Below the pieces are notes generated by a model, which made no database searches, was not told the origin of the DNA, and was given only the letters and a program-made list of their open reading frames with translations. A program made the translations under genes and the position numbers. Below are positions 17,686 through 45,220 of a DNA stretch of 64,000 bases, piece by piece (within the stretch, counting starts at the first letter, position 1; each line of letters begins with the position of its first letter). The DNA comes from Kiritimatiellia bacterium (GTDB lineage Bacteria > Verrucomicrobiota > Kiritimatiellia > JAAZAB01), in assembly GCA_050944835.1 (NCBI GenBank), contig JBMNRV010000001.1, positions 31,212 through 95,211 of the forward strand, in the 5' to 3' direction.

Positions 17686-18246
17686 CCTAAAACTGTAGCA
17701 GTTGGCAAGTTTGTCGCAGACGGAGGGGAGAACCACGGATGAACACTGATGGACACGGATGGAGGAGGGGGCGAGATAAACCGCCAAGACGCCAAGGTGG
17801 GGAAGAGGAGAATTAACCGCAGATTGCCGCAGATTAACGCAGGTTTTATCGGAGATATAAGATGACTCGAATGGCAGGCCGCGCTGTCCGCTATGCGGAC
17901 ATGGATTGGCGGACACCCAAGATACACGAATGGATTCGCGTATCAGGGTGTCAACCAATCCGCCGGACCGGCAGATGCCGGTCAGCGCGGCGCTTGAGGA
18001 TAATCCTTTCCCTAATCCATGTCTATCAGGTTAATCCGTGGTTCTTCTGCCAGTGCGGCTCGCACCTCCGTGTGAACCTCTCCTCCTCTACGTCTATCGG
18101 CGTCATCTGCGGTTACATTCTTTGTCTGTTTCTTTCCTGGTTTTCTTGGCGTCTTGGCGGTTCAATCCTATCCGTATCCATCCAGTGGTTCCTCTGGTTT
18201 TCAACACTTTATCTCGTTTCCTGAATTTCAAATACCGCTTTTAGGG
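17686..18246. mobile_element. mosaic palindromic intergenic element, full-length copy R-b (A end, D core +, B end)
   Basis: The A end CCTAAAACTGTAGCAGTTGGCAAG is on the left. The B end CAACACTTTATCTCGTTTCCTGAATTTCAAATACCGCTTTTAGGG is on the right. The arms are built of inverted word repeats. Confidence 0.8.
17883..17990 (+). repeat. D module copy 1 (conserved three-hairpin core of the mosaic element)
   Basis: GTCCGC-TAT-GCGGAC; long stem GGATTGG..GACACCC / GGGTGTC..CCAATCC around the palindrome GATACACGAATGGATTCGCGTATC; GACCGGC-AGAT-GCCGGTC. Confidence 0.8.
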
Positions 18247-21930: not shown

Positions 21931-23010
21931 ATGAAAAACCGTAAAACAATTCCTGCACACCTCTCTATCCGTACAACCCTGAAGAAGGAAATTCTGGACG
22001 GAAAACATGCTGAGCTTTCGGAAAGCCGTGTAATACAACGCTTCAAAGTGTCAAGCGCGACAGCCCGGCGGGTGTTGAATGATCTGGCTTTGGAAGGACT
22101 GGTATCGCGTCAGGTCGGTCGCGGCAGTATTGTGCGGCAGCCGCATGATCGGGCGTTTCGAGAATATGGGGCTGTTTTTTTTGATATCTTCGATCTGCGT
22201 GATTTCTTCATTGCTGAGATTGTCCGTGGGATTGAAGAACGGGCCAGCTCGAAAGAACATCAGTTGCATCTGTTCACCACCCGCGGCAAACAATTGGATG
22301 ATACGGGAGCATCTTCCATATCCTATCTCGTTAAAAGCCGTAAGATTCATGGTTTGTTTGTCTTATCGCCGTTAGATGCTGGCGCCATCCAGTTTTTCAT
22401 GGAAGAACGGCTGCCTTGCGTTGCGGTTGGAAATAATTATCCCGGTTTGCAGGTGCCGACAGTTATGGCCGACAACCGCCGGGCGATGCTGGATGTCTGT
22501 CACCGTCTTATGCGGGAAGGATTGCAACGCATCGCAGTTGTTGTGCGGCATAACCCACAGCGGGATGTTGAGCGTGGCTGTGATTTTATCGCGCGTGCAT
22601 ATCATGAATATTATGCCGAGTGCAAACTCCACCCGGAACCGGCCTGGTGGCAAGCCGTAGAAGACGAACGTGAAGCGGCAGTTAGCGCGATGAATGCGAT
22701 GAGCGCATTGCCGGCGGCCCAGCGCCCGCAGGCCGTGGTGGTACATGGGAAAAATTTGTCCACCGGAGTGAACGATTTTTTAACCCGCAGCCGCGATTGG
22801 CAACCAGTTCTGGTGCATTTTACGGATCGGCAGGAACGCGCACTCCGCACAATCACCGCGCCATATCGTAAGGTCGGGCGGATGGCCTTTGATTTGATGG
22901 AAGACATGTTTGCCAACCCAACCCGGCGCACCGCGAACGCGCCAGTGTTATTGCCAATGGATATTCATTGGCCACTAAAAACGGCATTTGAAATTCAGGA
23001 AACGAGATAA
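21931..23010 (+). CDS. transcriptional regulator, GntR-type winged HTH fused to a LacI/periplasmic-binding-like sugar-sensor domain
   Basis: N-terminal VSSATARRVLNDLALEGLVSRQVGRGSIV, followed by a PBP-like domain. The last 12 codons and the stop lie inside repeat R-c. Confidence 0.7.
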   Translation: MKNRKTIPAHLSIRTTLKKEILDGKHAELSESRVIQRFKVSSATARRVLNDLALEGLVSRQVGRGSIVRQPHDRAFREYGAVFFDIFDLRDFFIAEIVRGIEERASSKEHQLHLFTTRGKQLDDTGASSISYLVKSRKIHGLFVLSPLDAGAIQFFMEERLPCVAVGNNYPGLQVPTVMADNRRAMLDVCHRLMREGLQRIAVVVRHNPQRDVERGCDFIARAYHEYYAECKLHPEPAWWQAVEDEREAAVSAMNAMSALPAAQRPQAVVVHGKNLSTGVNDFLTRSRDWQPVLVHFTDRQERALRTITAPYRKVGRMAFDLMEDMFANPTRRTANAPVLLPMDIHWPLKTAFEIQETR

Positions 23011-23290
23011 AGTGTTGAGAACCGCAGATTACGCAGATTGGCGCAGATTGGGCGAGGGATACTCGTAGAAGAAGAACCACGGATGAACACTGATGGACAC
23101 TGATCACTGATGAAGGAGTGGAAGGGGTGCCCTGAAAGGGCATGACATACCCAGCTTGTGCGGCTCGCACCGCCAGTGCGGCTCGCACCGCCAGTGCGGC
23201 TCGCACTTACTGCCGTCCCTTCCGTCCCTGCTGTCCCTTCCGCCCCCTTCGCCAGTCCCCGATCAAACCCGCTTGGACTGGCCTTTCAGG
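22975..23290. repeat. mosaic element fragment R-c (B end plus arm words, no D core)
   Basis: CTAAAAACGGCATTTGAAATTCAGGAAACGAGATAAAGTGTTG, CCGCAGATTACGCAGATTGGCGCAGATTG, GAACCACGGATGAACACTGATGGACACTGAT. Confidence 0.8.
23158..23206. repeat. 18-bp tandem repeat (2.7 units), each unit containing a hairpin
   Basis: GTGCGGCTCGCACCGCCA x2 plus GTGCGGCTCGCAC. Single copies of GTGCGGCTCGCAC, or its complement, occur at about 18054 and 47089. Confidence 0.9.
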
Positions 23291-23292
23291 GA

Positions 23293-23397
23293 TACTTTGA
23301 CGTAGCTACCATTAGCCGATACGATTATGTCAATGATGCGACAGGAGGGCGGATTGCCATGAAATACAGCAGGTGCAAGAAGTACTGGTACACATAG
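23293..23397 (+). pseudogene. YD/RHS-repeat gene remnant (no start codon)
   Basis: Translates to ..NPLGLAFQGYFDVATISRYDYVNDATGGRIAMKYSRCKKYWYT*. It is fused to the right end of island repeat E1. Confidence 0.6.
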
Positions 23398-23420
23398 GGC
23401 GCATGAATACAGCCAGCAAT

Positions 23421-23501
23421 CAAAAACTCTGTGTTACGAGAGATAAAGCGCTTGAAATCGCAAAAAAACTTGACTGACCCCAAATACTGCTGACCCCAAA
23501 T
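23421..23501 (+). repeat. island repeat E1 (right end only)
   Basis: ..ACGAGAGATAAAGCGCTTGAAATCGCAAAAAAACTTGACTGACCCCAAATAC TGC TGACCCCAAATA. It ends at the ATG of the next ORF. Confidence 0.85.
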
Positions 23502-23942
23502 ATGCACAAATATGTGCCTGGCCACATGAAGAAGCCCTTTAAACTCTTACTGGTTCTTCTTGTTGTGGCCGTCATTGTGTCACAATTGACTGTAGTTGCA
23601 TGGCAAAGCATCGAACGGCGAGCACTGGCGGACTGCACCCTTCCATCGGGGGAACGATTCCAAGTCTACTACAGATATCATCCAAACCTTCTCATGGCCC
23701 TCACCGGAGTTGGTGGGTTGGAATGCGAATTTTGGAGTGCAACAGGCGATAAGAAGGTGTTTCCGCTTACGGCAAGGACAGACTTCGATATTATTGACGA
23801 TGTCGCTCTCCAGTCTCAGCTTGTAGATGAGCATTCCGTTTGTGTGAGTTGCTCCAGAGGCAAATGGATACTTACGAATACCGGTGAAGCAATTTCGGTA
23901 AACGATACCAATACCGTCTTTGCCCCCTCGCTACGCCGGTGA
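23502..23942 (+). CDS. hypothetical membrane-anchored/secreted protein
   Basis: N-terminal MKKPFKLLLVLLVVAVIVSQL signal anchor (an ATG at 23526 is also possible). I recognise no family. Confidence 0.5.
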   Translation: MHKYVPGHMKKPFKLLLVLLVVAVIVSQLTVVAWQSIERRALADCTLPSGERFQVYYRYHPNLLMALTGVGGLECEFWSATGDKKVFPLTARTDFDIIDDVALQSQLVDEHSVCVSCSRGKWILTNTGEAISVNDTNTVFAPSLRR

Positions 23943-24245
23943 CACGGTGTCTGCTTACGCACACGCCGCGCCACCTTCTCCGCTCGCCCGACGGCACGAG
24001 TTTCAACCAATCCGGAAAACAGGATTGACGCAGAGAGCGTCCGCCTATATGATTACGTTAATAATGGAGCTGGAGGGCGGACTATGGTGAAATATAAAGA
24101 GATGGCCATGCAAACGCTTTCAGGCCTCCCGGCTAATATGCCATTTGTCCGTGTTGAGTTTGATTACGACTATATGAGCAGGCGAGTTGGAAAGACGGTA
24201 TATGAATGGGGCAGTAACGGTTGGAAGGAAGTTTCCTTTAAATAA
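23943..24245 (+). pseudogene. YD/RHS-repeat gene fragment, 100 codons, no start
   Basis: ..RLYDYVNNGAGGRTMVKY..VRVEFDYDYMSRRVGKTVYEWGSNGWKEVSFK*. It is in the same frame as the preceding ORF, separated by one TGA. Confidence 0.6.
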
Positions 24246-24257
24246 TGCCATTGTTTT

Positions 24258-24797
24258 TTGAATGTGAAAAATTCTAACAAGATAAATATTGCCATGGTAC
24301 ATCGGTTAAAAAAAGTTTTAAAACAGATGATCCTAAGCGGAATGTTTGTTGTTATCTTACATTGTAATGGATGTGCCACAACAAGAGAATCTACCAGTTA
24401 CGAGATCAATATTCAGTTACATCCTCAACCTATTAGCGGACAATATCTATTCACTGCTGATATTCATGAGAACACACTAACTGATTACAAAAGACCTGGT
24501 TCTTTCGGAAGCACAGCCAATAACAGGCGTTTGCCATCGCCTAAAATGACGCTTAATGTTGGCGAAGAAAAAAATGTTTTGTTTGAAGAAGATGAAAACC
24601 AACCAGCTGTTGATGCTACAGCCGGTATTCTAAAAGAGCAAGGAGGGGTTTCATTAAAATATCGTGTAAACGTGCGAAAAGGAAACAATAATTTTGTTGC
24701 ATCGGGGGTGGTTTCTCTTGGAAATGACATTAGGACATATGTTAGTCCAGGCGATTCGGCGCCGGAGGAGAAATCAGCAACCCCCGTGGTGAAATAA
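24258..24797 (+). CDS. hypothetical lipoprotein-like protein (AT-rich cassette gene)
   Basis: Probable start is the ATG at 24294 (MVHRLKKVLKQMILSGMFVVILHCNGC). Composition is AT-rich. Confidence 0.55.
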   Translation: MNVKNSNKINIAMVHRLKKVLKQMILSGMFVVILHCNGCATTRESTSYEINIQLHPQPISGQYLFTADIHENTLTDYKRPGSFGSTANNRRLPSPKMTLNVGEEKNVLFEEDENQPAVDATAGILKEQGGVSLKYRVNVRKGNNNFVASGVVSLGNDIRTYVSPGDSAPEEKSATPVVK

Positions 24798-24978
24798 GTG
24801 GGAAAATTGGGGTCAGTCAAGTTTTTTTGTGATTTCATTTGACATAGTGTCCTGGATACGGGGTTAAGGGTGCCATGGCAAGGCGTTGCCCTCTTTGATC
24901 AAAGCAATCAGATGGGAAGACTGTAAGAATGCAAGACGATCTGTCTGTACGAATTTCTCGTCATAACGGTATTAGCAC

Positions 24979-25227
24979 ATGAAATTGTCTGTTTTCTGGT
25001 CACGTTTGGGAATGATTTTGGGCATTTGTCTAAAGGCGCTGTTTGTAGTCCTCCTGGTTTGCTGGTTGTTGGTTTTAGCGATTGGCGCACGTCATGTTAT
25101 CGCAGGCACGACTCCCTTGAGGATTGGTCATGTTGTTGGCGCGTTGATTCCGCCATTTGTCTTTGCACTTGCGTTGGTGGCTTTCTTGCATGGGCGAGCG
25201 AAACACCGTAATCAAGGGACTCTATAA
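24979..25227 (+). CDS. small hydrophobic membrane protein (82 aa) inside E2
   Basis: Has 2-3 predicted TM stretches (ILGICLKALFVVLLVCWLLVLAIG; ALIPPFVFALALVAFL). Confidence 0.4.
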   Translation: MKLSVFWSRLGMILGICLKALFVVLLVCWLLVLAIGARHVIAGTTPLRIGHVVGALIPPFVFALALVAFLHGRAKHRNQGTL

Positions 25228-25230
25228 GAA

Positions 25231-25374
25231 ATGCTGCAAGATAAACTGATGTATGGACTCGGCTGTTGCCGGGCCCCGCTGTTCGCGGCCCTGCTTCTGT
25301 CCTTGGTGACGGTGATCGGGTGCAACGATACCGATTCGTACTTCCGGCGCTTCGTTTCAAGAGATTATATATAA
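25231..25374 (+). CDS. 47-aa putative lipoprotein inside E2 (not in the supplied ORF track)
   Basis: The ATG lies 4 nt after the previous stop. The protein MLQDKLMYGLGCCRAPLFAALLLSLVTVIGCNDT.. has a VIGC lipobox. Confidence 0.35.
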   Translation: MLQDKLMYGLGCCRAPLFAALLLSLVTVIGCNDTDSYFRRFVSRDYI

Positions 25375-25410
25375 CTGCTTCCAATTTTTTAGGGGAAGTC
25401 CAGTTGGTAA

Positions 25411-25602
25411 AATAGGTTTGACGCTGCGACCATTAGCCGGTACGATTATGCCAATGATGCGACAGGAGGGCGGATTGCCATGAAATACAGCAGGTGCAAA
25501 AAGTACTGGTACAGCTCCATAGGGCGCATGAACGCAGCCAGCAATCCAAAACTCTGCGCTACGAGAGATAAAGCGCTTGAAATCGCAAAAAAACTTGACT
25601 GA
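25411..25602 (+). pseudogene. YD/RHS-repeat remnant fused to the E2 right end
   Basis: Stop-bounded frame NRFDAATISRYDYANDATGGRIAMKYSRCKKYWYSS..DKALEIAKKLD*. The frame beyond KYWY is not conserved in the other copies (4-nt indel). Confidence 0.55.
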
Positions 25603-25718
25603 CCCCAAATACCCCTTGACTGACCCCAAATACGTAGATGACCCACGCGGCGAATTCTGGGCTCCGGATATAGAAGAATATTTATAATCTGCGCACAATA
25701 CAGCTAGGAACGATTACG

Positions 25719-26468
25719 ATGGGAAAAATTGCCTTTTTGCCGATTAAAAGATTTGCTTTTTTATTCCTATGTGCTTTATCGGCCTGTAATACTCCAATAA
25801 ATAATGATTCAGAGAAATTATGTATTGTTTATGCTCCTGGTGTTGTTGATGATGGTATACGGAGGGAGCCATGCTGTATGGTTACGCAACGAATATACGA
25901 TGTTTGTAATTCACAATTAATCGTGTATTACGGAGACGGAAATGCACATACACAAAATATAGATTTATCCGATAATGACATAAACGATATATATGCAGCA
26001 TTTAAGAAATATAAAATATTGGAAATAGACAAGGGAAATTGGTTTAGCGGAGCAATAGTAATGGGCACAAACGTGTATATTGATAATATATATATTAACG
26101 TTGTATCGACAAATTATACTCGTGTGCCACCCCATGAAACAAGAACACATATTTATTATAATCAGGGTAAAGAATCGGTTCACCTTGTAGTTTTGAATTA
26201 TCCGTTTTTGAAAAAAAAGCATGATGAATTATCGACAAAAGCAATAAAAATATTGGATTTGATAGATTCAAAACTAAATAATTGCGGAATAGATTATTTT
26301 TTCGGCCTTGGAAGGCGGTACCCTCCATTTTTCCCGCAGACAAGGATGGCTGTGACAGTCCACCAAGATTCATCGGTGTTAAACACGACGAAAAATCAGG
26401 CAGAAACGGGACTTGATGAGCGAAAAAGAAGCAATGTCGAGGGGGCCGAGGGCAAGAATGATCCGTAA
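25719..26468 (+). CDS. hypothetical lipoprotein (249 aa, strongly AT-rich)
   Basis: Signal peptide with lipobox FLCALSAC. I recognise no family. Confidence 0.6.
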   Translation: MGKIAFLPIKRFAFLFLCALSACNTPINNDSEKLCIVYAPGVVDDGIRREPCCMVTQRIYDVCNSQLIVYYGDGNAHTQNIDLSDNDINDIYAAFKKYKILEIDKGNWFSGAIVMGTNVYIDNIYINVVSTNYTRVPPHETRTHIYYNQGKESVHLVVLNYPFLKKKHDELSTKAIKILDLIDSKLNNCGIDYFFGLGRRYPPFFPQTRMAVTVHQDSSVLNTTKNQAETGLDERKRSNVEGAEGKNDP

Positions 26469-26501
26469 TAAATTATGCTCTAGTCAGGAAATTTGGAGAA
26501 A

Positions 26502-26767
26502 TTTTGGGGTCAGTCAAGTTTTTTTTTATGATTCTACCTGACATAGTGTTCTGAAAATTGGATTAAGTGTCCCAAGGTGGGCACCGTGCGTGCGCAATAT
26601 TGGCCGCGTGGTTGAAATTTGGGGTTGACGCGGACTGGGTGTCGTCGCCGTATAATGACTCTCGCAAACTGTTATAGGCGGAGTTAATCTAAAACTCCGC
26701 GCTAAGAGACAAAGCGCTTGAAATCGCAAAGAAACTTGACTGACCCCAAAATACTGACCCCAAAATA
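26502..26767 (+). repeat. island repeat E3 (266 bp, IR-bounded, short form)
   Basis: Left TTTTGGGGTCAGTCAAGTTTTTTTTTATGATTC. Right TGAAATCGCAAAGAAACTTGACTGACCCCAAAATAC TGACCCCAAAATAC. The core is shared with E4 and contains TTGACG (26625-26630) and TATAAT (26651-26656). Confidence 0.9.
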
Positions 26768-26963
26768 CAAAATACAAAAATACTCGTGGAGGAAACACTC
26801 TGAGCAAAAAAACATGTTTTTAAATTGACATGTTTTTTCGTATTTTGCACACTGCCAACCATGCAAACACTTGTTCATATTGATGCCGGTGGCTGTGTGT
26901 GCCTGCATTGGCAGAAAAGCAATTTCTTACCAGTTCAATCAATAAGGAATTAATTGAAAAGTG

Positions 26964-27500
26964 ATGAAAAAAATTGTAGCATTCGCCGGAAGTAATAGTT
27001 ACGTATCAATCAATAAGGAATTAATAAAATATACAGCAGCGAGCTTGGGGCAATTTGATGTCAATTTTTTAGATTTAAATGACTTTGAAATGCCTGTTTA
27101 TTCGCTGTACCGCGAAAAAAATGAAGGAGTACCCGAGCAGGCACACCGTTTCAGAAAATTGATGCACGAGGCTGATGGTATTGTACTGTCGGTTGCGGAA
27201 CACAATTGGAGTATAGCGGCTACATTAAAAAATTTACTGGATTGGTGTAGCAGGGTAGATATGAACATATTCAATCACAAGCCCATGCTGCTGATGAGTG
27301 CATCGATAAGCAAAGCCGGTGGTGTGCAGGCTTTGAATTATATGCTCTATGTGAAAGATAAATTTAGTATGAATGTGGTTGAAACTTTTTCGCTCCCATC
27401 GTTCAATCACAGCTTTGCTGATGGCAGAATTACGGATGAATATTTGAAAACCGAGCATAATACTAAGGTAACCACATTTGCAGAGCGTGTAGGCAGGTAG
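26964..27500 (+). CDS. NADPH-dependent FMN reductase family protein
   Basis: MKKIVAFAGSNS, ADGIVLSVAEHNWS and LKNLLDW match the FMN_red family pattern. Confidence 0.75.
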   Translation: MKKIVAFAGSNSYVSINKELIKYTAASLGQFDVNFLDLNDFEMPVYSLYREKNEGVPEQAHRFRKLMHEADGIVLSVAEHNWSIAATLKNLLDWCSRVDMNIFNHKPMLLMSASISKAGGVQALNYMLYVKDKFSMNVVETFSLPSFNHSFADGRITDEYLKTEHNTKVTTFAERVGR

Positions 27501-27566
27501 AGCGGGAGTTCTCCAAAAATAAGCGGGTAGGAGAGGGGTTAAAATCGTGGAATAATTATTCTGAGT

Positions 27567-27635
27567 GGACTTTCCCCAAAAATTCTGTCATTCCATAAAG
27601 ATCAGTCCGAGCGGGTTAAATTCGGGGTCTGGCGG
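27567..27635. repeat. short repeat module also present in the mosaic-element blocks outside the island
   Basis: GGACTTTCCCCAAAAATTCTGTCATTCCATAAAGATCAGTCCGAGCGGGTTAAATTCGGGGTCTGGCGG. Related copies occur in the opposite orientation at 32550-32610 and 47571-47639; partial copies are at 32140-32190 and 57447-57495. Confidence 0.8.
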
Positions 27636-27749
27636 CTTGTACTGGTTCCATTTTCCATGGCGCGTAAAAGAGTCTCCCGATACCGTCGGCAATAGCGTAG
27701 TAGATAAACTCAACAACACCGTAAATGCGCTTGGCAGCATTAGGGAAAT

Positions 27750-28166
27750 TTTTGGGGTCAGCCAAGTTTTTTTGTGATTCTACCTGATATAGTGTTCTGA
27801 AAATTGGATTAAGTGTCCCAAGGTGGGCATCGTGCGTGCGCAATATTGGCCGCGTGGTTGAAATTTTGGGGTTGACGCGGACTGGGTGTCGTCGCCGTAT
27901 AATGACTCTCGCAAACTGTTATTGGCGGAGTTGATCTGAACTGAACCGGCAATGTGCTTGGACTGGATACGCATGGAATTGGGCATGGGTGATCGCTCGT
28001 GTTGCAATCATTTGATAGGATTCCTGAAAAATCTTTGAAAAACTCCGCGTTACGAGAGATAAAGCGCTTGAAATCGCAAATAAACTGCGCGCCTACACAA
28101 ATACACACGAGAGATAAAGCGCTTGAAATCGCAAAAAAACCTGACTGACCCCAAATACAAATACAT
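27750..28166 (+). repeat. island repeat E4 (417 bp, IR-bounded, E3-like core plus insertion and duplicated right end)
   Basis: Left TTTTGGGGTCAGCCAAGTTTTTTTGTGATTC. The right end ACGAGAGATAAAGCGCTTGAAATCGCAAA is present twice (28061-28089, 28107-28135) and is followed by CCTGACTGACCCCAAATAC. Confidence 0.9.
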
Positions 28167-28250
28167 ACCGTAATCGGTAGGAGAAAGCTTGCTATTGTGC
28201 ATGCTCGTAAACCAGCTCGCATTATACTTGTGTCAACAAGGAAAAACTGA

Positions 28251-29108
28251 ATGGCCAAGTCTCGTTATATACCGCTACTTGTTGCAGTGTGCTGTTGTGC
28301 TTTTGGAATCTCGGAGGAGACGGAACGATCAAAAGGCTTAGAAGATAGTGCTCTTATCAAGCTTTCGCCAAAAGAAGCGATTGAGTTTGTCTGGATATCT
28401 GAATTAGATGTCTGGGTGGGCAAATACGAGGTGACGCTCGGTCAATTTATTCATATGTCCAGACGTGCAGCCAAGTACCCTCATGAGTTTGCTGGTCGAT
28501 TTGTTGAGAATGGTGATGAAATGAACGCTCCGGCCGTGATGGTGGGGTGGAAAGAAGCTAATGACGCATGCAGGTTTCTCAATCGTCAATACGGTCATTT
28601 GTTGCGAGATGGTTATATATTTCGGCTCCCAACAGAAAGCGAATGGGACGAAATTGCGAGATGCGGAGATGATCGGATATATCCATGGGGCAATGACTGG
28701 CCACCGGTACCAATGGCTGACGGTATTTTGCCAAATCTTCAAGGTGTAGAAGTCATTTCTATTAGTGGACGGACGCCACCAGCGATTCGTTCCATTCCTG
28801 GCTATAGTGACGGATGGCCGTCGGTTGCGCCAGTTAAGCATAGCGGTGCCAATGACTGGGGTGTCTTCGGTCTTGCTGGCAACGTTCAAGAATGGTGTGA
28901 AGGTTGGTATGACCGAGGTCGAGGTTTAAGATTGCTAAAGGGTAGTTCTGCTGGCTCATTTCAGCCAGTCGACTGCAAAATTACTGCCCGCCATGCAGTA
29001 GAAGGCCAATCTACTTTCAGGGGGTTGTTTCTTTGGGGGGAAGTGCGAAATCAAGGGCGATCGTACACAGGTTTTCGGATAGTCGTAGGGCAGCCTATCA
29101 TCAGATAG
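28251..29108 (+). CDS. secreted formylglycine-generating-enzyme (FGE/SUMF1) domain protein
   Basis: Signal peptide, WVGKYEVTLGQF, PAVMVGWKEANDACRFLN, RLPTESEWDEIAR, YPWGNDWP, GLAGNVQEWCEGWYD, GFRIVVG. Confidence 0.8.
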   Translation: MAKSRYIPLLVAVCCCAFGISEETERSKGLEDSALIKLSPKEAIEFVWISELDVWVGKYEVTLGQFIHMSRRAAKYPHEFAGRFVENGDEMNAPAVMVGWKEANDACRFLNRQYGHLLRDGYIFRLPTESEWDEIARCGDDRIYPWGNDWPPVPMADGILPNLQGVEVISISGRTPPAIRSIPGYSDGWPSVAPVKHSGANDWGVFGLAGNVQEWCEGWYDRGRGLRLLKGSSAGSFQPVDCKITARHAVEGQSTFRGLFLWGEVRNQGRSYTGFRIVVGQPIIR

Positions 29109-29124
29109 CGGATAACGGAGACTA

Positions 29125-29200
29125 ATGGAACCAGACAGAGCCATAGAGATTATACATAGTCTTGCCGACGTGGTTGACCATATAGCGGCGAGCGATTCCC
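29125..29200 (+). repeat. cassette-junction repeat, copy 1
   Basis: ATGGAACCAGACAGAGCCATAGAGATTATACATAGTCTTGCCGACGTGGTTGACC.. (MEPDRAIEIIHSLADVVD..) recurs at 30578-30653. Both copies begin 13-16 nt after the stop codon of the preceding ORF. Confidence 0.85.
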
Positions 29201-29464
29201 GTCCGACTCTCCCTACCAGCACGCCGACACGGTCTGTGCGTTGCACCTGGCGCTTGAGGGACTGACCCATCTTCTACCGTTTAAAAAATTGAAGTGTTGA
29301 TAATCAACGACTTACAAAAGCGACAGATGCCTGTGCCAAGCAAGCGTCCAAGCCCCGAGGTTTCTTGTGCTAGACCTGCTGCATGAAAACCAAACAACAT
29401 GCAGGTATGGCGGAGCTGTGCGCGGCGAACAGCAGTGCAACGCTAGGAACTGGTTCAAGGATGA

Positions 29465-29737
29465 CAGCAGGCTTTAACCGGCGGTAGAAATAGGTTTGAC
29501 GTAGCGACCGTCACCCGATACGATTATGCCAATGACGCGGCTGGCGCAGTAGTGGCACACTTGCTTTGGTGTCTAGTACCCATTGGTTTACTAGAACCTG
29601 TCCGAACCGCAAGTATGGTCGTTGGTGCACTAAGTGTGAATGAGCGGGAAGGCTATGACCAATCCAAGATCATTACTTATTGTCTTCATCATTGCTCATC
29701 TTCTTGTGCAAGTCTCGGCTTTTCTCGTCTCGCTTGA
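29465..29737 (+). pseudogene. YD/RHS-repeat fragment continuing into a unique tail of about 65 codons (orphan C-terminal-module-like)
   Basis: Stop-bounded frame QQALTGGRNRFDVATVTRYDYANDAAG|AVVAHLLWCLVPIG... It has no ATG (GTG at 29552). Homology to the E5-linked copy (30838-30964) ends at GCGGCTGG. Confidence 0.45.
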
Positions 29738-29987
29738 TGATCGTGTTGTGCCAACTCATCCGGGCTATTCGCGGTCATTGGAGCGACGTGTCGCCGTAGC
29801 CCAAGTGATTACGGCGGTCGTCGGTGTGCCGTTTTCGACCCTCTTGTGGTGCGTGCCCTTGAAGGCATCAGGTTCTTGGAGTCAGTTCGCCGCATCCGTG
29901 TACGTCCATGCTTGGCCTCTTTGGATGCTTTTCAATACTACGATTTGGGCTTTGGTTTTTCGTGGACTGTTACGTCGTTTTTCGTGA
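29640..29987 (+). CDS. hypothetical small membrane protein
   Basis: Hydrophobic stretches LLIVFIIAHLLVQVSAFLVSL and VITAVVGVPFSTLLWCVPL. It overlaps the tail of the previous frame. Confidence 0.4.
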   Translation: MSGKAMTNPRSLLIVFIIAHLLVQVSAFLVSLDDRVVPTHPGYSRSLERRVAVAQVITAVVGVPFSTLLWCVPLKASGSWSQFAASVYVHAWPLWMLFNTTIWALVFRGLLRRFS

Positions 29988-30120
29988 CCGCGCTTATGTC
30001 GGTGAAGATTCGTATCGCTCATCCCAATGGTGTGGGTAAACGTCCGGTCGAGCACTCCCTATACAGGTTTGTTATGATGTGCTAGACCTGCTGTATGAAA
30101 CCATGCAACGGAGGTGTCGT

Positions 30121-30564
30121 ATGAAGAAGGTATTTCTAGGTGTCTTTCTGGGTGCCGTTATCGCGTTTGGGTTGTTGTTGGTTGTTTTTTTTGCGATGCC
30201 TTCTGAGCGCCGTTTGTCAGACCTTCATACGACGGGATTTCGTCTCGCAGACCGAAGTAGTGTTTTGTATTTTGCGAAATATTTACCGGACACCCTTTCG
30301 CCAGAGTCCTTTGCGGGTGTTGTGATTATTGATACTAACCTAAGTGTCATTGCCTCGCGCATACTTCCGCCAGAATTGTTGCATGGTGAGGAACTCATAA
30401 TTGAAGCTGATAAAGCACGTGAGCGACTTCAGGTTCGGAATTCAACTTCCCAAGTGGCTGTTCGTTGGTCTGTTGGTAGCCAAGAGTTTGAGCTCTGTAC
30501 CAATGCCTTGGAAAACCCGCTCGAAAATGCACAGCTGATTCTGAAATCCATCAGAGCGCGGTAG
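30121..30564 (+). CDS. hypothetical membrane-anchored protein (147 aa)
   Basis: The ATG at 30121 gives MKKVFLGVFLGAVIAFGLLLVVFFAMPS. It is preceded by the junction repeat TGTGCTAGACCTGCTGTATGAAACCA. Confidence 0.45.
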   Translation: MKKVFLGVFLGAVIAFGLLLVVFFAMPSERRLSDLHTTGFRLADRSSVLYFAKYLPDTLSPESFAGVVIIDTNLSVIASRILPPELLHGEELIIEADKARERLQVRNSTSQVAVRWSVGSQEFELCTNALENPLENAQLILKSIRAR

Positions 30565-30577
30565 TGGCAGCATTCAC

Positions 30578-30653
30578 ATGGAACCGGACAGAGCCATAGA
30601 GATTATCCATAGTCTTGCCGACGTGGTTGACCCATACAGCGGCGAACGGGCCA
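30578..30653 (+). repeat. cassette-junction repeat, copy 2
   Basis: MEPDRAIEIIHSLADVVDPYSGE.. The frame runs directly into the left IR of E5. Confidence 0.85.
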
Positions 30654-30661
30654 CTGGAAAA

Positions 30662-31108
30662 TTGGGGCCAGTCAAGTTTTTTGTGATTTTATTTGACATA
30701 GTGTCTTGGATATAGGGTTAATGGCGCCATGGCAAGGCAATTACGGGGTGAATGCTTTGGCGCGCTTTATCACATCACATAATGGCACGAGAGGCGTGAG
30801 CCGATAGTATCTGGTGATGCTCTAGGTGCACGAAGTTGTGCGCGGCGGACAGCAGTGCAACGCTAGGACCTTGTTCAAGGATGACAGCAGGCTTTAATCG
30901 GCAGTAGAAATAGGTTTGACGCTGCGACCATCACCCGATACGATTATGCCAATGATGCGGCTGGACGACGGATTGCCATGAAATACAGCAGGTGCAAGAA
31001 GTACTGGTACACATGGGGCGCATGAATGCAGCCAGCAATCCAAAACTCCGTGCTACGAGAGATAAAGCGCTTGAAATCGCAAAAAAAACTTGACTGACCC
31101 CAATACTG
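30662..31108 (+). repeat. island repeat E5 (447 bp, IR-bounded, contains a YD remnant at 30886-31026)
   Basis: Left TTGGGGCCAGTCAAGTTTTTTGTGATTTTA; right TGAAATCGCAAAAAAAACTTGACTGACCCCAATAC. Confidence 0.85.
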
Positions 31109-31246
31109 ACGCCGTCATTACCTGATCTTATTGAGCCGCCAACAACAAAACCTGAGTGGCCCAGTTGGCTGGATTGGTTGGATATTATTAGAAAAGGCTG
31201 GGATTGGATTAGGGGACGCGATTGAAATATAAACTTGAGGTTTTAT

Positions 31247-31870
31247 ATGTATAAGAAAGCAAATATATTTGCTTTGTTTTTTATTGTATTGTCCATTGCA
31301 TTTGGTGATGATTTTGGCGTTAATGGTAAAGAATTACTAATAAAACTTTCTTCGGATGATTACTTTGAACGAACGTCGATATTGAAAAGTGTTGCCTTAT
31401 ATGGAGAATCACATGCATTACCACAAGAAATTACGGAACTGCTGTTATTGCAATACCACAAAGAAACAGATTGGCGTATAAAGGTGCGGATAATATTGGT
31501 GCTTAAATATTCTGATGACAAGAAAAGTGTTCTTCCTTTTTTAGTGCAATGTCTTAATGATCGTGAACCTTGTTCTGGCGGGTCAGGGCTGGTGCCTTCC
31601 ACTGCGGCAAAAGTGATTTCTGAAATAGGTGATGTCTCGACCTTTGAGCCGCTTAAAAGGTGGGTTGATTTTTTAAAAAAAGCCCCTTATGCCGAAGATG
31701 TTAATGAAGAATATAGCAATGAAATGTTGAAGCTAAATGCTGGTTATCTGAAAACGTTACAAGCGCGGATTACGGAAAAGTCTGATGGATATAATAGTCC
31801 AACCAATCCGGTGCCGGAAAAACCAACGAATTCCGGGGTGAAAAGCAAGGCGGACGGCGGGGGGAAGTGA
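31247..31870 (+). CDS. secreted HEAT/armadillo-like repeat protein (tentative)
   Basis: The ATG at 31247 gives MYKKANIFALFFIVLSIAFG. Helical-repeat-like segments are present (DWRIKVRIILVLKY..VLPFLVQCLND..TAAKVISEIGD). Composition is AT-rich. Confidence 0.5.
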   Translation: MYKKANIFALFFIVLSIAFGDDFGVNGKELLIKLSSDDYFERTSILKSVALYGESHALPQEITELLLLQYHKETDWRIKVRIILVLKYSDDKKSVLPFLVQCLNDREPCSGGSGLVPSTAAKVISEIGDVSTFEPLKRWVDFLKKAPYAEDVNEEYSNEMLKLNAGYLKTLQARITEKSDGYNSPTNPVPEKPTNSGVKSKADGGGK

Positions 31871-32205
31871 TAAAAACAGTGCGTGGAAACGGCGGACAGC
31901 CGGGATAAACCGGAAGCAGACCGATTGTGGCAGTGCGGATGTTGGCATGGGCGCTCCGTAGTATGCCACGAAAGCTGCGGAGACAGCATCCACGCCAACC
32001 GCCCGCTTGCGGTCCCGCTCCAGCAGAGAGTGTGCCGGAAGACCGTCCCCCCACTGCCTCCGTCGTTGACGGGCCGCTACGAGATGCGGCTAAAAGATGA
32101 ATTGGGCGTTGTGGCGCCGACGTACGCAGCGCCAAGCCGCGCGGACTGGCCTTTGATTAATCGCCAGATTTTTGGGGAAAGTCCACACGCAAATACCAGG
32201 ACATC

Positions 32206-32242
32206 CCCCAAAAAATTGGAAGCAGTTATATATAATCTCTTG
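32206..32242 (-). repeat. inverted copy (36/37 nt) of 25358-25395
   Basis: CCCCCAAAAAATTGGAAGCAGTTATATATAATCTCTTG compared with the reverse complement of CAAGAGATTATATATAACTGCTTCCAATTTTTTAGGGG. Confidence 0.85.
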
Positions 32243-32258
32243 TAAGCAAACGACATGA

Positions 32259-32610
32259 CCTAAAACTGCGGCAGTTGGCAAGTTTGTCGCAGATGCGCGG
32301 CGCGACAGAGGGGAGAACCACGGATGAACACGGATTAACACGGATGGTCTCACGGAGGAGGAGAACCGATAGACGTAGATGGTGAAGGGTAGCCCTTTAT
32401 AAGGGCGTAACATAGTTGTGTTCAATCCCCGATATCCCAAGACGTTGCCCTGAATTTCTATGTCACGCCCTTTCAGGGCTGTTTTCATGTTTTCCCGTTA
32501 ATCCCAGGGCGTTGCCCTAGGCTGGGTATGTCATGCCCTTTCAGGTCCCCGCCAGACCCCGAATTTAACCCGCGCGGACTGGTTTTTGATTAATGGCCGG
32601 ATTTTTTGAC
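32259..32610. repeat. mosaic element block R-d (A end, arm words, then an inverted copy of the 11.1-11.3 kb hairpin block)
   Basis: CCTAAAACTGCGGCAGTTGGCAAGTTTGTCGCAGATGCGCGG, GAACCACGGATGAACACGGATTAACACGGATGG, GCCCTTTCAGGGC hairpins. Confidence 0.8.
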
Positions 32611-43112: not shown

Positions 43113-43128
43113 AGTTCAATCGCACCAC

Positions 43129-43317
43129 AAACGTGTCATAAACGTATCAATCGTATCATAAACGCGCCATAAACGTATCATAAACGTGTCATAAACGTAT
43201 CAAACGTATCATAAACGTATCATAAACGCGTCATAAACGTATCAAACGTATCATAAACGTATCATAAACGCGTCATAAACGTATCAAACGTATCATAAAC
43301 GTATCATAAACGCATCA
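43129..43317. repeat. 10/11-bp tandem array (about 18 units) with a 42-bp higher-order period
   Basis: The units are variants of AAACGTATCAT / AAACGCGTCAT / AAACGTATCA. The block AAACGTATCA-AACGTATCAT-AAACGTATCAT-AAACGCGTCAT repeats about 3 times. Confidence 0.95.
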
Positions 43318-43447
43318 CGTTGAGTTCAAGACGACTGATAGGTGCCCATTTTTTTATGGACAAGTTGCAGAGTATCGCCATAATGTTGACAAAATAATGT
43401 AAGAAAATTAAAAAAAGATTTGCAACTTTATACAGGAGCAGCGCTCA

Positions 43448-43909
43448 ATGCAACTTACTGATACACAAAAAGCGACAGTCGCGCAGTGGGTGAATGATGG
43501 ATGTACGCTGGCGGAACTCCAGCGCAAAATCAACGAGGAGTTCAATCTTTCACTTACCTTTATGGACGTGCGTTTATTGGTGCTTGATCTGAACTTGGAA
43601 ATTAGGGACCAGGCAACAGTGGGTGGTACGGTGGACTTGTCAAAACCGCCACCTGTGTCTGCTTCAAACATAAGCGAAGACGGGCATCTGGCCGGCGGGG
43701 TATCAGTTTCCCTTGATCGCATCGTCAAGCCCGGCGCCGTTGTCAGTGGTCAGGTTACTTTTAGTGACGGGGTCAGCGCTGAGTGGATGTTGGATCAAAT
43801 GGGGCGGTTGGGGTTGAGCGCCACGCAGCCGGGGTATCGCCCGAGCCAGGAGGATTTGCAGTCTTTCCAAGAGGAGTTGGCGAAGCTGTTGCAGTCGCAG
43901 GGGATGTGA
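43448..43909 (+). CDS. hypothetical protein (153 aa)
   Basis: GGAG lies before the ATG and the composition looks coding. I recognise no family. Confidence 0.55.
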   Translation: MQLTDTQKATVAQWVNDGCTLAELQRKINEEFNLSLTFMDVRLLVLDLNLEIRDQATVGGTVDLSKPPPVSASNISEDGHLAGGVSVSLDRIVKPGAVVSGQVTFSDGVSAEWMLDQMGRLGLSATQPGYRPSQEDLQSFQEELAKLLQSQGM

Positions 43910-43915
43910 GGCTGA

Positions 43916-44130
43916 GGGAAGAACCACGGATAGACACGGATGGACACTGATGTGTTGGAAAAAGGAAAGGCGATAGCAAAAGAAGATGTTTATAGAGCAG
44001 GGTGTCAACCGATCCGCCAGACTGGCAGATGCTGGTTAGCGTGGCGTAAGTTATGCAATCTGAAAATCTTGCTTCTTCCTGGCTCCGTGTTTGTCCGTGT
44101 TCTGGTTCCTCTTGTTCTCAACATTTAATC
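43916..44130. repeat. mosaic element fragment R-f (arm words plus right half of the D core)
   Basis: GAACCACGGATAGACACGGATGGACACTGATG; half D core at 43999-44047 (AGGGTGTCAACCGATCCGCCAGACTGGCAGATGCTGGTTAGCG). Confidence 0.75.
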
Positions 44131-45165: not shown

Positions 45166-45220
45166 ACCCTCGACCTTTTGGTCCCGAACCAAACGCGCTA
45201 CCAGTCTGCGCTACGCCCCG
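45144..45220 (-). tRNA. tRNA-Pro (anticodon CGG), CCA encoded
   Basis: Hand-folded cloverleaf: CGGGGCG TA GCGC AGACTGGTA GCGC G TTTGG TTCGGGA CCAAA AGGTC GAGGG TTCAAAT CCCTC CGCCCCG A CCA. Confidence 0.9.

What the first reader, a model, noticed from the sequence alone, without database searches (positions are those of the whole stretch)
26502..28166. E3 and E4: short IR-flanked units with a shared promoter-like core directly upstream of cassette genes (candidate invertons or hairpin recombination sites)
E3 (266 bp) and E4 (417 bp) share a nearly identical core of about 200 nt (..GACATAGTGTTCTGAAAATTGGATTAAGTGTCCCAAGGTGGGCA..GGTTGACGCGGACTGGGTGTCGTCGCCGTATAATGACTCTCGCAAACTG..). The core is enclosed by the island IRs. 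Each unit sits 85-195 nt upstream of a + strand gene: the FMN-reductase-like gene at 26964 and the FGE-domain gene at 28251. TTGACG and TATAAT hexamers (26625-26630/26651-26656 and 27872-27877/27898-27903) point toward those genes, although the spacing is a non-canonical 20 nt. A few-hundred-bp segment with a promoter-like core flanked by IRs of about 30 nt, just upstream of surface or secreted protein genes, is the geometry of invertible promoters known from Bacteroides and other gut bacteria. The same geometry would also let one strand fold into a long hairpin, as attC sites do.
Basis: partly seen in the sequence, partly recalled or inferred. Interest (0 to 1): 0.7.

Follow-up and report, generated by a model that had tools for sequence, protein, structure and literature searches.

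The report
Repeat junctions between swappable gene cassettes
E3 and E4 are two copies of a short DNA repeat with inverted ends that separates the genes of a strain-variable island, built partly on leftovers of Rhs toxin genes, in an uncultured digester/wastewater bacterium. They look like the joints at which genes are exchanged, not like on/off switches.

Summary
E3 (26502-26767) and E4 (27750-28166) share 204 nt at 93% identity. Each is bounded by a 25-29 nt inverted repeat, and each carries TTGACG-N20-TATAAT pointing at the next gene.

They belong to a family of five elements (E1-E5) found only in a low-GC island (23.0-32.3 kb). All five have the same orientation, and one sits in front of each group of small co-oriented genes.

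Public contigs from other samples show the same genes with different partners:
- An E3 variant has a different upstream cassette.
- An E4-like element sits in front of the HEAT gene, where the window has E5.

No copy is flipped in any of about 20 independent contigs. No recombinase or transposase domain is found in the 64 kb.

The sister subtype (E1, E2, E5) contains an 80-nt stub of an Rhs toxin gene, so the island derives at least in part from an Rhs orphan toxin/immunity array.

Best reading (about 0.45): these are cassette junction elements, analogous to integron attC sites or the rAID-1 intergenic repeats, that may also supply a promoter. The inverton reading is unsupported. A MITE reading remains possible. 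The mechanism is inferred.

The parts
26502..26767 (+). E3, a subtype-A junction element: L-end, A core, small hairpin, R-end
26495..26582 (+). E3 L-end (family-wide conserved left end); its outer part 26501-26525 is the left arm of the inverted repeat
   Evidence: nhmmer profile hit at 81 bits; inverted-repeat alignment
26625..26656 (+). E3 promoter-like box TTGACG-N20-TATAAT, pointing at the gene at 26964
   Evidence: Both hexamers are invariant in 5 subtype-A copies. The sigma-70 scan did not call it because of the spacer.
26678..26700 (+). E3 8-bp hairpin GCGGAGTT / AACTCCGC with a 7-nt loop
   Evidence: In E4 and L038 a 113-nt insertion sits in this loop.
26686..26754 (+). E3 R-end (family-wide conserved right end); 26728-26752 is the right arm of the inverted repeat
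   Evidence: nhmmer hit at 67 bits
26755..26768 (+). Partial tandem copy of the repeat's outer tip (TGACCCCAAAATAC), just outside the R-end. It travels with the downstream FMN_red cassette.
   Evidence: It is identical in L033 although that contig's element differs by 8%.
27750..28166 (+). E4, a subtype-A junction element with a 113-nt insertion and a duplicated, truncated R-end
27745..27828 (+). E4 L-end; left repeat arm at 27751-27779
27872..27903 (+). E4 promoter-like box TTGACG-N20-TATAAT, pointing at the gene at 28251
27938..28040 (+). Approximate extent of the insertion in the E4 hairpin loop, flanked by ATCTGAA / ATCTTTGAA
   Evidence: alignment with E3; the same insertion is in L038
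28034..28086 (+). First R-end copy of E4, truncated inside the inverted repeat after AAACTG
   Evidence: (D6)
28088..28158 (+). Second, complete R-end of E4; right repeat arm at 28127-28155
23296..23487 (+). E1: right half only (rhs stub plus R-end), at the left edge of the array
24807..25612 (+). E2, subtype B: L-end, 82-aa membrane-protein ORF, rhs stub, R-end
30661..31106 (+). E5, subtype B: L-end, pre-B module, rhs stub, R-end
23991..24242 (+). 84-codon remnant of an Rhs C-terminal module (C24). It is intact (364 aa) in the related contig L058.
29411..29557 (+). Free-standing pre-B module plus rhs stub, without L-end or R-end, upstream of the 110-aa gene
26964..27500 (+). Cassette gene between E3 and E4: NADPH-dependent FMN reductase family, GC 0.40
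28251..29108 (+). Cassette gene after E4: FGE-sulfatase-domain protein with an N-terminal signal-like segment, GC 0.49
23000..32300 (+). The whole island: nine small co-oriented genes, GC 0.36-0.51 against 0.52-0.57 in the flanks, between a GntR/LacI-type regulator and ClpB

Best explanation
E3 and E4 are two copies (subtype A) of a modular junction element that separates gene cassettes in a strain-variable accessory island. The island itself descends, at least partly, from an Rhs orphan toxin/immunity array.

**Structure.** Each element has a conserved left end of about 75 nt and a conserved right end of about 65 nt. The outer 25-31 nt of the two ends are inverted copies of each other. Between them lies an exchangeable middle: the A core in E3 and E4, or an rhs gene stub with other material in E1, E2 and E5.

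**Proposed role.** The elements are direct repeats along the array. I propose they are the places where cassettes are joined, lost and re-paired, either by site-specific recombination on the folded or paired ends (as at integron attC sites) or by homologous exchange between copies. The middle probably supplies transcription signals for the gene on its right. They are not switches that flip.

**Shown:**
- the family, its restriction to the island, and its uniform orientation;
- different left or right partners in other strains;
- breaks of homology at or inside the right inverted repeat;
- absence of flipped copies;
- the Rhs origin of the sister subtype.

**Inferred:** the recombination mechanism and enzyme, promoter activity, and an immunity function for the cassette genes.
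For: **A confined, co-oriented array.**
- All 4 L-ends and all 5 complete R-ends, plus one truncated R-end, lie in 23.4-31.1 kb. All have the same orientation, alternate L,R,L,R, and are co-directional with all nine cassette genes.
- Profile searches find none in the other roughly 55 kb.
- Cassette genes differ in GC (0.36-0.51) and all are below the flanks.

**Partner exchange between strains.**
- L033 carries [unrelated upstream sequence] - E-A variant - FMN_red - E4 - FGE. Its E-A variant differs from E3 by 8%, yet the sequence to the right of the R-end repeat is identical. The switch therefore falls in or at the right inverted repeat.
- L017 has nearly the same E-A variant behind a third, different gene.
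- L038 has an E4-like subtype-A element in front of the HEAT gene, where the window has subtype-B E5. L036 and L039, from other samples, share that junction.

**Junction detail.**
- Homology breaks at the same point inside the right repeat (after AAACT) in L017 and in E4's truncated first R-end.
- Partial tandem copies of the repeat's outer tip lie outside the elements and travel with the neighbouring cassette.

**No target-site duplication.** Conserved but non-complementary bases (GGRAAA on the left, ATAC on the right) continue just beyond the repeat.

**Rhs origin of the island.**
- The subtype-B core encodes RFDAATISRYDYANDATGGRIAMKY, 67% identical to residues 11-37 of P0009.
- P0009, P0011, P0012 and P0014 carry the Rhs core end plus variable C-termini.
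- The L059 protein matches TIGR03696 Rhs_assc_core at 62 bits against a cutoff of 32.5.
- L058 has an intact 364-aa rhs C-terminal module where the window has an 84-codon stub.

**Known analogue.** rAID-1 clusters are co-oriented short low-GC orphan immunity genes with conserved intergenic repeats 'reminiscent of integrons' (10.1101/471110; PMC12247911).

**Promoter-like box.** TTGACG and TATAAT are invariant in all five subtype-A copies, while 3 spacer positions vary.
Against: - No tyrosine or serine recombinase, or transposase, domain is found in any ORF of at least 120 aa in the 64 kb. Three of those ORFs have no Pfam hit at all.
- Only three or four natural variants are available, and two are weak. 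L017 has coverage 1.4 and a probably chimeric right side. L033 has coverage 0.6 and many single-base indels.
- Not all strain differences lie at the element ends. L052 and L057 leave the window's order elsewhere. The two HEAT junctions differ by 17 against about 70 nt between the R-end and the shared sequence. This fits untargeted homologous or illegitimate recombination as well as a site-specific system.
- A classic Rhs orphan array from the same sample (L059) has no L-ends or R-ends.
- Mismatches in the repeat arms are not compensated, and there is no covariation anywhere in the element.
- The promoter has a 20-nt spacer, and promoter-like sites are not enriched in the island (19 found against 16.1 expected).
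- None of the cassette proteins matches a known immunity family.
Confidence: 0.45

Rival explanations
1. [quoted passage not shown] They would be non-autonomous elements moved in trans by a transposase encoded elsewhere, landing in intergenic DNA and bringing a promoter and a hairpin-forming repeat, as Correia elements do in Neisseria.
For: - Terminal inverted repeats of 25-31 nt, conserved subterminal regions and a variable middle.
- Subfamilies (A and B), a nested insertion, truncated and solo ends.
- The nearly identical E-A variant has different flanks on both sides in L017 and L033, so the element behaves as an independent unit.
- Correia elements can create promoters and are RNase III substrates (PMC2649163).
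Against: - No target-site duplication at any of four complete copies. The bases outside the repeat are conserved between copies rather than duplicated.
- All copies in the window are confined to 8 kb, in one orientation. None is found in the other roughly 55 kb, which is full of intergenic repeats of other families.
- No empty site was seen. Instead, two different subtypes occupy the same position in front of the HEAT gene.
- Copies differ by 6-8%, so there has been no recent burst.
- No hit in 185,579 species-representative genomes with the 20-mer, and only one in the metagenome contig collection.
Confidence: 0.2
2. E3 and E4 are invertible promoters (invertons). A recombinase encoded elsewhere would flip the segment between the inverted repeats and so switch the FMN reductase-like and FGE-domain genes on and off.
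For: - The geometry fits: an intergenic segment of 266 or 417 bp between inverted repeats of 25-29 nt, with a promoter-like box facing the gene.
- Over 75% of PhaseFinder invertons are shorter than 300 bases (PMC11602134).
- A global invertase acting on many loci that share one repeat is known in Bacteroides fragilis (Mpi; cited in PMC11602134).
Against: - No flipped copy in any independent assembly: E3 in 4, E4 in 4-5, E2 in about 10, E5 in 3.
- All five elements face the same way.
- No invertase in 64 kb.
- E2 has the same ends but encloses an 82-aa gene and an rhs stub, not just a promoter.
- Strain variation replaces flanks, not orientation.
- The promoter spacer is 20 nt.
- Consensus assemblies hide minority orientations, so this is not excluded.
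Confidence: 0.08
3. The elements do nothing as DNA sites. They would be inherited debris (untranslated regions and gene stubs) of successive toxin/immunity modules. These modules would have entered by ordinary homologous recombination and displaced one another, as proposed for Vibrio cholerae T6SS immunity arrays. Any effect would be at the RNA level: read-through transcripts would fold the two ends into a long duplex and be cut by RNase III.
For: - Rhs stubs stand in front of most cassettes.
- The island is a mosaic of several other short repeats.
- Some strain breakpoints lie away from the element ends.
[quoted passage not shown] Rhs orphans recombine by homology (PMC3967940).
Against: - Debris does not explain why a 25-31 nt near-perfect inverted repeat is the best-kept part of every copy, together with sharp outer boundaries.
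- It does not explain why the ends are absent from the classic Rhs array of the same sample.
- It does not explain two homology breaks at the same position inside the right repeat.
- The A core of E3/E4 shows no significant similarity to rhs.
Confidence: 0.22

Closest known systems
rAID-1 (recombinase-associated acquired interbacterial defence) clusters of Bacteroidales (Ross et al., 10.1101/471110; PMC12247911)
   Same: [quoted passage not shown]
- GC below that of the host.
- Conserved repetitive intergenic sequences.
- A link to polymorphic-toxin systems (here Rhs gene stubs).
- Strain-to-strain variation in content.
   Different: - No XerD-like recombinase at the 5' end; the 5' neighbour is a GntR/LacI-type regulator.
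- No cassette protein matches a known immunity family.
- The host is an uncultured digester/wastewater bacterium with about 55% GC, whereas rAID recombinase homologues are reported only in Bacteroidales.
- The intergenic element is 266-806 bp with 25-31 nt inverted ends. The rAID motifs are only published as figures and could not be compared.
Integron attC sites and CALIN arrays (clusters of attC sites lacking an integrase) (PMC4889954)
   Same: - Direct repeats along a co-oriented cassette array.
- Each repeat has internally inverted ends able to fold into a hairpin, and a variable middle.
- Ends are more alike within the array than anything found elsewhere.
- No integrase nearby, as in CALIN.
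   Different: - No AAC/GTT conserved triplets in the required positions, no unpaired central spacer and no extrahelical bases.
- The stem is 25-31 bp and near perfect.
- The middle is 200-750 nt, against a variable terminal structure of 20-100 nt.
- The element carries promoter-like boxes, whereas integron cassettes are typically promoterless.
Correia repeat enclosed elements (CREE/NEMIS) of Neisseria (PMC2649163)
   Same: A short intergenic element with terminal inverted repeats and a conserved core. It can provide a promoter to the adjacent gene. Its repeats would form a long duplex in read-through RNA.
   Different: Correia elements are dispersed in hundreds of copies with target duplication. 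E elements show no duplication and are clustered in a single array in one orientation.
Invertible promoters (invertons) (PMC11602134)
   Same: An intergenic segment of a few hundred bp containing a promoter-like box, between inverted repeats, upstream of a gene.
   Different: No second orientation was seen and no invertase is nearby. The same ends also enclose a gene (E2). The elements form a tandem array.
Rhs orphan toxin/immunity arrays and T6SS orphan immunity arrays (PMC3967940; PMC5361080)
   Same: Repeated stubs of the conserved Rhs region stand in front of successive modules. Small signal-peptide or lipoprotein genes follow. Related contigs L058 and L059 show the intact form.
   Different: In the window the toxin parts are gone. 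E3 and E4 themselves contain no recognisable rhs sequence. The ends bounded by inverted repeats are not a feature of described Rhs arrays.

Membership tests
Inverton (invertible promoter) | Short intergenic segment flanked by inverted repeats | tested here: met
   E3 is 266 bp with 24 of 25 nt repeat arms. E4 is 417 bp with 26 of 29 nt arms.
Inverton (invertible promoter) | Functional promoter inside the segment | tested here: inconclusive
   TTGACG-N20-TATAAT is invariant in 5 copies. The spacer is non-canonical, the consensus scan did not call it, and there are no transcript data.
Inverton (invertible promoter) | Both orientations present in populations or strains | tested here: not met
   All copies in all fetched contigs have the window's orientation. 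Tested at assembly level only; reads could not be mapped.
Inverton (invertible promoter) | Site-specific invertase (local or global) | tested here: not met
   No recombinase domain in any ORF of at least 120 aa in the 64-kb window. The rest of the genome is not available.
Integron attC site | R''/R' boxes with conserved AAC ... GTT triplets | tested here: not met
   Read inward, the arms are TTGGGGTCAGTCAAGTTTTTTTG. They contain no RYYYAAC / GTTRRRY. Criteria from PMC4889954; the box consensus is from my own knowledge.
Integron attC site | Imperfect stem with unpaired central spacer and extrahelical bases; variable terminal structure of 20-100 nt | tested here: not met
   The stem is a near-perfect 25-31 bp. 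The middle is about 200 nt in E3, about 350 nt in E4 and about 750 nt in E2.
Integron attC site | Integron integrase (IntI) adjacent to the array | tested here: not met
   None in the window. This alone would still allow a CALIN.
Integron attC site | Clustered sites on one strand between co-oriented cassettes | tested here: met
   Five elements within 8 kb, less than 2.6 kb apart, same strand.
rAID-1 cluster | XerD-like tyrosine recombinase gene at the 5' end | tested here: not met
   The 5' neighbour is a GntR/Peripla_BP regulator. No recombinase in the window.
rAID-1 cluster | Two or more co-oriented short genes with GC below the host | tested here: met
   Nine genes of 82-285 codons, GC 0.36-0.51 against 0.52-0.57 in the flanks. 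The published absolute cut-off (41% or less) is specific to Bacteroidales.
rAID-1 cluster | Conserved intergenic sequence motifs | tested here: met
   L-ends and R-ends. Identity with the rAID motifs was not testable because they are published only as figures.
rAID-1 cluster | Genes encode orphan immunity proteins | tested here: inconclusive
   No Pfam or NCBIfam immunity family matched. No similarity to the putative immunity genes of L059. The Rhs stubs and signal-peptide or lipobox N-termini are only suggestive.
MITE | Terminal inverted repeats, small size, no transposase | tested here: met
MITE | Target-site duplication | tested here: not met
   Flanks of E2-E5, L017 and L033 show no direct duplication. 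The outer bases are conserved between copies.
MITE | Dispersed multicopy distribution; filled and empty sites | tested here: not met
   Found only inside the island within this 64 kb. No empty site among the fetched contigs. The genome-wide count is not testable here.
Rhs orphan module | Fragment of the conserved Rhs region at the module start | tested here: not met
   Met for E1, E2, E5, 29411-29557 and 23991-24242. Not met for E3/E4: the A core has no significant similarity.
Rhs orphan module | Rhs-associated core end plus C-terminal toxin followed by an immunity gene | tested here: not met
   Absent in the window. Present in related contigs L058 and L059 (TIGR03696 at 62 bits).
Known RNA family (Rfam 15) | Match to a curated covariance model | tested here: not met
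   Only two tRNAs in the window at gathering score. In the island at E <= 1 there is only a chance-level Thr_leader hit outside the elements. No covarying pairs.

The most novel reading that the evidence does not exclude
The island is the cargo array of an undescribed cassette-capture system, a functional analogue of integrons and rAID-1 outside Bacteroidales. A recombinase encoded elsewhere in the genome would recognise long junction elements, folded through their 25-31 nt inverted ends. It would insert, excise and reorder cassettes, each of which arrives next to its own promoter-bearing element. The system would have colonised, or grown out of, an Rhs orphan toxin/immunity locus.
Probability: 0.15. 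Interest if true: 0.75.

Novelty: new variant of a known kind. Interest (0 to 1): 0.48.

Why it matters
How bacteria assemble arrays of orphan immunity and other accessory genes is an open question. The rAID authors themselves call the mechanism of array formation an area of active research (PMC12247911).

Here is a second, unrelated lineage in which small low-GC genes are strung together with a conserved repeat at each joint. Toxin-gene stubs are still visible, and different strains in public metagenomes already show different partners at the same joints. That makes the junctions directly testable with read mapping and with a complete genome.

If the ends prove to be recombination substrates, this would be a new kind of cassette site. 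If not, the case documents how a promoter-bearing repeat spreads inside a single island.

For annotation, the practical lesson is that geometry resembling an inverton (inverted repeats plus a promoter upstream of a gene) is not enough to call phase variation.

Tried and rejected
**Known RNA.** Rfam at gathering score and at E <= 1 gave nothing relevant. RNAalifold on three subtype-A copies found 0 compensatory pairs.

**Canonical attC.** The sequence and structural criteria are not met.

**Tn3-type ends.** From memory, Tn3 ends begin with GGGG and give a 5-bp duplication. The E arms begin TTGGGGTC, but there is no duplication and no inner TAAG, so I dropped this.

**Hin/hix-like half sites.** From memory, the T-run plus GTGAT resembles a hix half site. 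However, a single arm has no internal dyad, so this is not a complete site. It remains an untested lead.

**MerR-type promoter.** Such promoters have 19-20 nt spacers, but the spacer here has no dyad, so I dropped this.

**A core as a decayed rhs stub.** BLASTP against P0009 gave E about 1. Local DNA alignments scored no better than shuffles for the E5 and E2 B cores and only marginally better for C24 and 29411-29557 (28 and 40 of 500 shuffles).

**Pfam RHS_repeat on the short stubs.** No hit. The whole-library phmmer search settled the Rhs origin instead.

**Finding more copies.**
- The 20-mer scan of 185,579 genomes gave only chance hits; L001 is a coding match.
- The repeat pattern in metagenome contigs gave one true hit, L017.
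- Viral contigs, plasmids and phages gave none.
- A chimeric protein query made from spurious ORFs of the B elements returned nothing.

**Orthologous empty site.** GntR regulator homologues at 65-74% identity lie in a different gene order without an island, so this was uninformative.

**Immunity function.** The putative immunity genes of L059 have no similarity to the window's cassette proteins.
Full report
**1.

E3 (26502-26767, 266 bp) and E4 (27750-28166, 417 bp) share 26491-26693 / 27739-27940, which is 204 nt at 93.1% identity. The best ungapped block is 96% identical. Each is bounded by an inverted repeat: 24 of 25 nt in E3 and 26 of 29 nt in E4. TTGACG and TATAAT lie exactly where stated, 20 nt apart. 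The units end 196 and 84 nt before the FMN_red gene (26964) and the FGE-sulfatase-domain gene (28251).

Chance is excluded. The 21-mer of the repeat occurs 9 times with at most 1 mismatch, against 0 in shuffles. An inner 20-mer occurs 6 times exactly, against 0.02 expected. As single-stranded DNA, E3 folds far better than shuffles (z -5.3), while E4 does so only marginally (z -2.0).

**2. Anatomy of the family**

The window holds five such elements:
- E1, 23296-23487 (right half only);
- E2, 24807-25612;
- E3;
- E4;
- E5, 30661-31106.

All share two conserved ends:
- a left end of about 75 nt: GGRAAA-TTGGGGTCAGTCAAGTTTTTTTGTGATT..TGACATAGTGT..;
- a right end of about 65 nt: AAAACTCCGCG..AAAGCGCTTGAAATCGCAAAAAAACTTGACTGACCCCAAATAC.

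Only the outer 25-31 nt of the two ends are complementary. The middles fall into two types.

Type A (E3, E4) has the core with TTGACG-N20-TATAAT, followed by an 8-bp hairpin GCGGAGTT/AACTCCGC. E4 equals E3 plus a 113-nt insertion in that hairpin's loop and a duplicated R-end that is truncated inside the inverted repeat.

Type B (E1, E2, E5) has a different core. E2 additionally encloses an 82-codon membrane-protein ORF.

Profile searches find 4 L-ends and 5 complete R-ends plus one truncated R-end. All lie in 23.4-31.1 kb on the same strand, and none lies in the remaining roughly 55 kb. There is no target-site duplication. Instead, non-complementary bases just outside the repeat are conserved between copies.

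**3. Context**

The elements punctuate an island (23.0-32.3 kb) of nine small genes, all on the + strand. Gene GC is 0.36-0.51, against 0.52-0.57 for the flanking GntR/LacI-type regulator and ClpB. The rest of the window is ordinary chromosome: polyphosphate kinase, phosphofructokinase, ketol-acid reductoisomerase, prolyl-tRNA synthetase, arginine and purine biosynthesis genes, and formate-tetrahydrofolate ligase.

No ORF of at least 120 aa has a recombinase, integrase or transposase domain. Three such ORFs have no Pfam hit at all.

Contig names place the organism in biogas-fermenter and wastewater metagenomes. It is not among the species-representative genomes reachable with the pattern scan.

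**4. Type B reveals the island's origin**

The type-B core keeps an open frame, NRFDAATISRYDYANDA.GRRIAMKY, in all copies. A longer version at 23991-24242 runs for 84 codons.

A search of 1.84 billion representative proteins with that peptide found 43 proteins at E <= 0.001. These include the N-termini of 314-386 aa proteins and internal parts of RHS_repeat proteins of 1,000-1,860 aa.

The closest hits carry the canonical end of the Rhs core (..NPFRFSSKYTDDET.LVYYGYRYYSPS.GRWLSRDP..) followed by unrelated C-termini. One of them matches TIGR03696 Rhs_assc_core at 62 bits against a cutoff of 32.5. The B-core peptide is 67% identical to residues 11-37 of P0009.

Two related contigs show the intact form:
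- **L058** (wastewater) has the end of the 146-aa gene followed by an intact 364-aa Rhs C-terminal module, where the window has the 84-codon stub.
- **L059**, from the same JGI sample as the window's strain, is a classic Rhs orphan array. Each module starts with the same stub, and it has no L-ends or R-ends.

The TTGACG-N17-TACGAT boxes that the promoter scan finds in every B core are therefore the codons F-D ... Y-D-Y of an rhs gene. Whether they also act as promoters is open.

The A core of E3/E4 shows no significant similarity to this stub. Its origin is unknown.

**5. Strain comparison is the most informative evidence**

Contigs of the same strain from several samples are colinear with the window at 99.98-100% identity. 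More distant samples differ precisely around the elements:
- **L033** reads [unrelated sequence] - E-A variant - FMN_red - E4 - FGE. Its first element differs from E3 at 8% of positions up to CGCAAA[A/G]AAAC in the right end. Everything to the right, including the partial tandem copies TGACCCCAAAATAC-AAAATAC-AAAAATAC, matches apart from single-base indels.
- **L017** has almost the same variant behind a third, unrelated gene.
- **L038** has an E4-like type-A element, with the 113-nt insertion and a single R-end, directly before the HEAT gene, where the window has type-B E5. Two further samples (L036, L039) share that junction.

So the element keeps its place while the partner on either side, or the element type itself, is exchanged.

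Two independent breaks of homology fall at the same spot inside the right repeat, after AAACT. One is in L017 and the other in E4's truncated R-end.

Against a purely site-specific picture:
- L052 and L057 leave the window's order at places that are not element ends.
- The two HEAT junctions differ in the length of sequence between the R-end and the shared part.

**6. The inverton reading**

The geometry fits, but nothing else does.
- In about 20 independent contigs no copy is flipped.
- All five elements face the same way.
- No invertase is within 64 kb.
- The same ends enclose a gene in E2.
- Natural variation replaces flanks rather than orientation.

Consensus assemblies cannot exclude minority orientations, so I keep this reading at about 0.08.

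**7. The attC reading**

The analogy is good. The elements are direct repeats along a co-oriented cassette array, each with internal inverted ends and a variable middle. The ends are highly similar within the array, and no integrase is nearby, as in CALIN arrays (PMC4889954).

Membership fails, however:
- no AAC/GTT triplets;
- no unpaired spacer or extrahelical bases;
- a near-perfect 25-31 bp stem;
- a middle of 200-750 nt;
- promoter-like boxes.

The closest described system in overall architecture is rAID-1 of Bacteroidales. It has co-oriented short low-GC orphan immunity genes, conserved intergenic repeats 'reminiscent of integrons', and a 5' XerD-like recombinase (10.1101/471110; PMC12247911). 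Here the recombinase is missing from the window and an immunity function is unproven.

**8. The MITE reading**

This fits the terminal repeats, the subfamilies, the nested insertion and the element's independence from both flanks. It also has a precedent for promoter delivery and RNase III processing in the Correia elements (PMC2649163).

It does not fit the absence of target duplications, the confinement to one array in one orientation, the absence of empty sites, or two subtypes at the same position.

**9. Verdict**

E3 and E4 are real, non-random and unannotated. They are best described as cassette junction elements of a strain-variable island that grew on an Rhs orphan toxin/immunity locus (confidence 0.45). 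They are probably also the source of transcription signals for the downstream genes.

The recombination mechanism (folded-hairpin site-specific, or homologous between copies) and the enzyme are inferred, not shown.

The element family has no match in Rfam, plasmids, phages or viral contigs. The 20-mer scan of the species-representative genomes found only chance matches.

I rate it a new variant of a known kind, with moderate interest. The decisive tests are read mapping for flip, deletion and circle junctions, and a genome-wide census with a recombinase search. Both are feasible with public data.

Noticed in passing
window 43118-43349: About 21 tandem copies of an 11-nt unit (AAACGTATCAT). They lie just upstream of a 153-aa ORF with no Pfam hit (43448-43909) and an N6/N4 DNA methylase gene (44053-45165) that abuts a tRNA gene (45147-45220, minus strand). 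This could be an iteron-like array or a remnant of an integrated element.
   Followed up: no
window 17719-17783, 23063-23127, 32304-32368, 43910-43974, 46929-46993, 49883-49947, 55668-55732 and others: Several other intergenic repeat families are spread over the whole window and are unrelated to E. Examples are GAACCACGGATGAACACnGATGGACACGGATG (7 copies), CCTAAAACTGCGGCAGTTGGCAAGTTTGTCGCAGA (6 copies) and CGCGGACTGGCCTTTGATTAAT. This genome is unusually rich in short dispersed repeats.
   Followed up: no
window 23296-23400, 23991-24242, 25410-25515, 29484-29557, 30908-31020: Five stubs of an Rhs-family gene (frame RFDA..RYDYANDA.GRRIAMKY). The longest is an 84-codon remnant whose intact 364-aa counterpart is in wastewater contig L058.
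   Followed up: yes
L059 1-5266 (JGI 3300049647, contig Ga0499526_021402): A classic Rhs orphan array from the same sample. It has three Rhs C-terminal modules with different toxin ends (one has CCKEHDAC, a phospholipase-A2-like motif by eye). Each is followed by a small signal-peptide protein. It has no L-ends or R-ends.
   Followed up: partly
window 29125-29194 and 30578-30648: A 70-nt module (reads MEPDRAIEIIHSLADVVD..) is repeated at 93% identity, starting 14-17 nt after the stop codons of the FGE-domain gene and of the 147-aa gene. In E5 it directly precedes the L-end.
   Followed up: no
window 25719-26468: The 249-aa lipoprotein-like cassette gene is split into 157 + 91 aa by a one-base difference in JGI contig Ga0499526_001564. 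Either it is a pseudogene in part of the population, or one of the two assemblies has a homopolymer error.
   Followed up: no
window 25348-25401 and 32199-32252: An inverted pair of 54-nt repeats (89% identity): one inside E2, the other at the right edge of the island. Contig L057 departs from the window's gene order exactly after the first copy. The pair could mediate inversion or deletion of the 7 kb between them.
   Followed up: partly
L017 689-1239: After AAAAAAACT inside the right repeat, the contig continues into an internal fragment that reads like an aspartyl-tRNA synthetase gene (by eye). At coverage 1.4 this is probably an assembly chimera. However, the break is at the same position as the truncation of E4's first R-end.
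   Followed up: partly
window 45147-45220 and 49592-49665: Two tRNA genes on the minus strand, 4.4 kb apart, share 90% identity over 82 nt including flanking bases.
   Followed up: no
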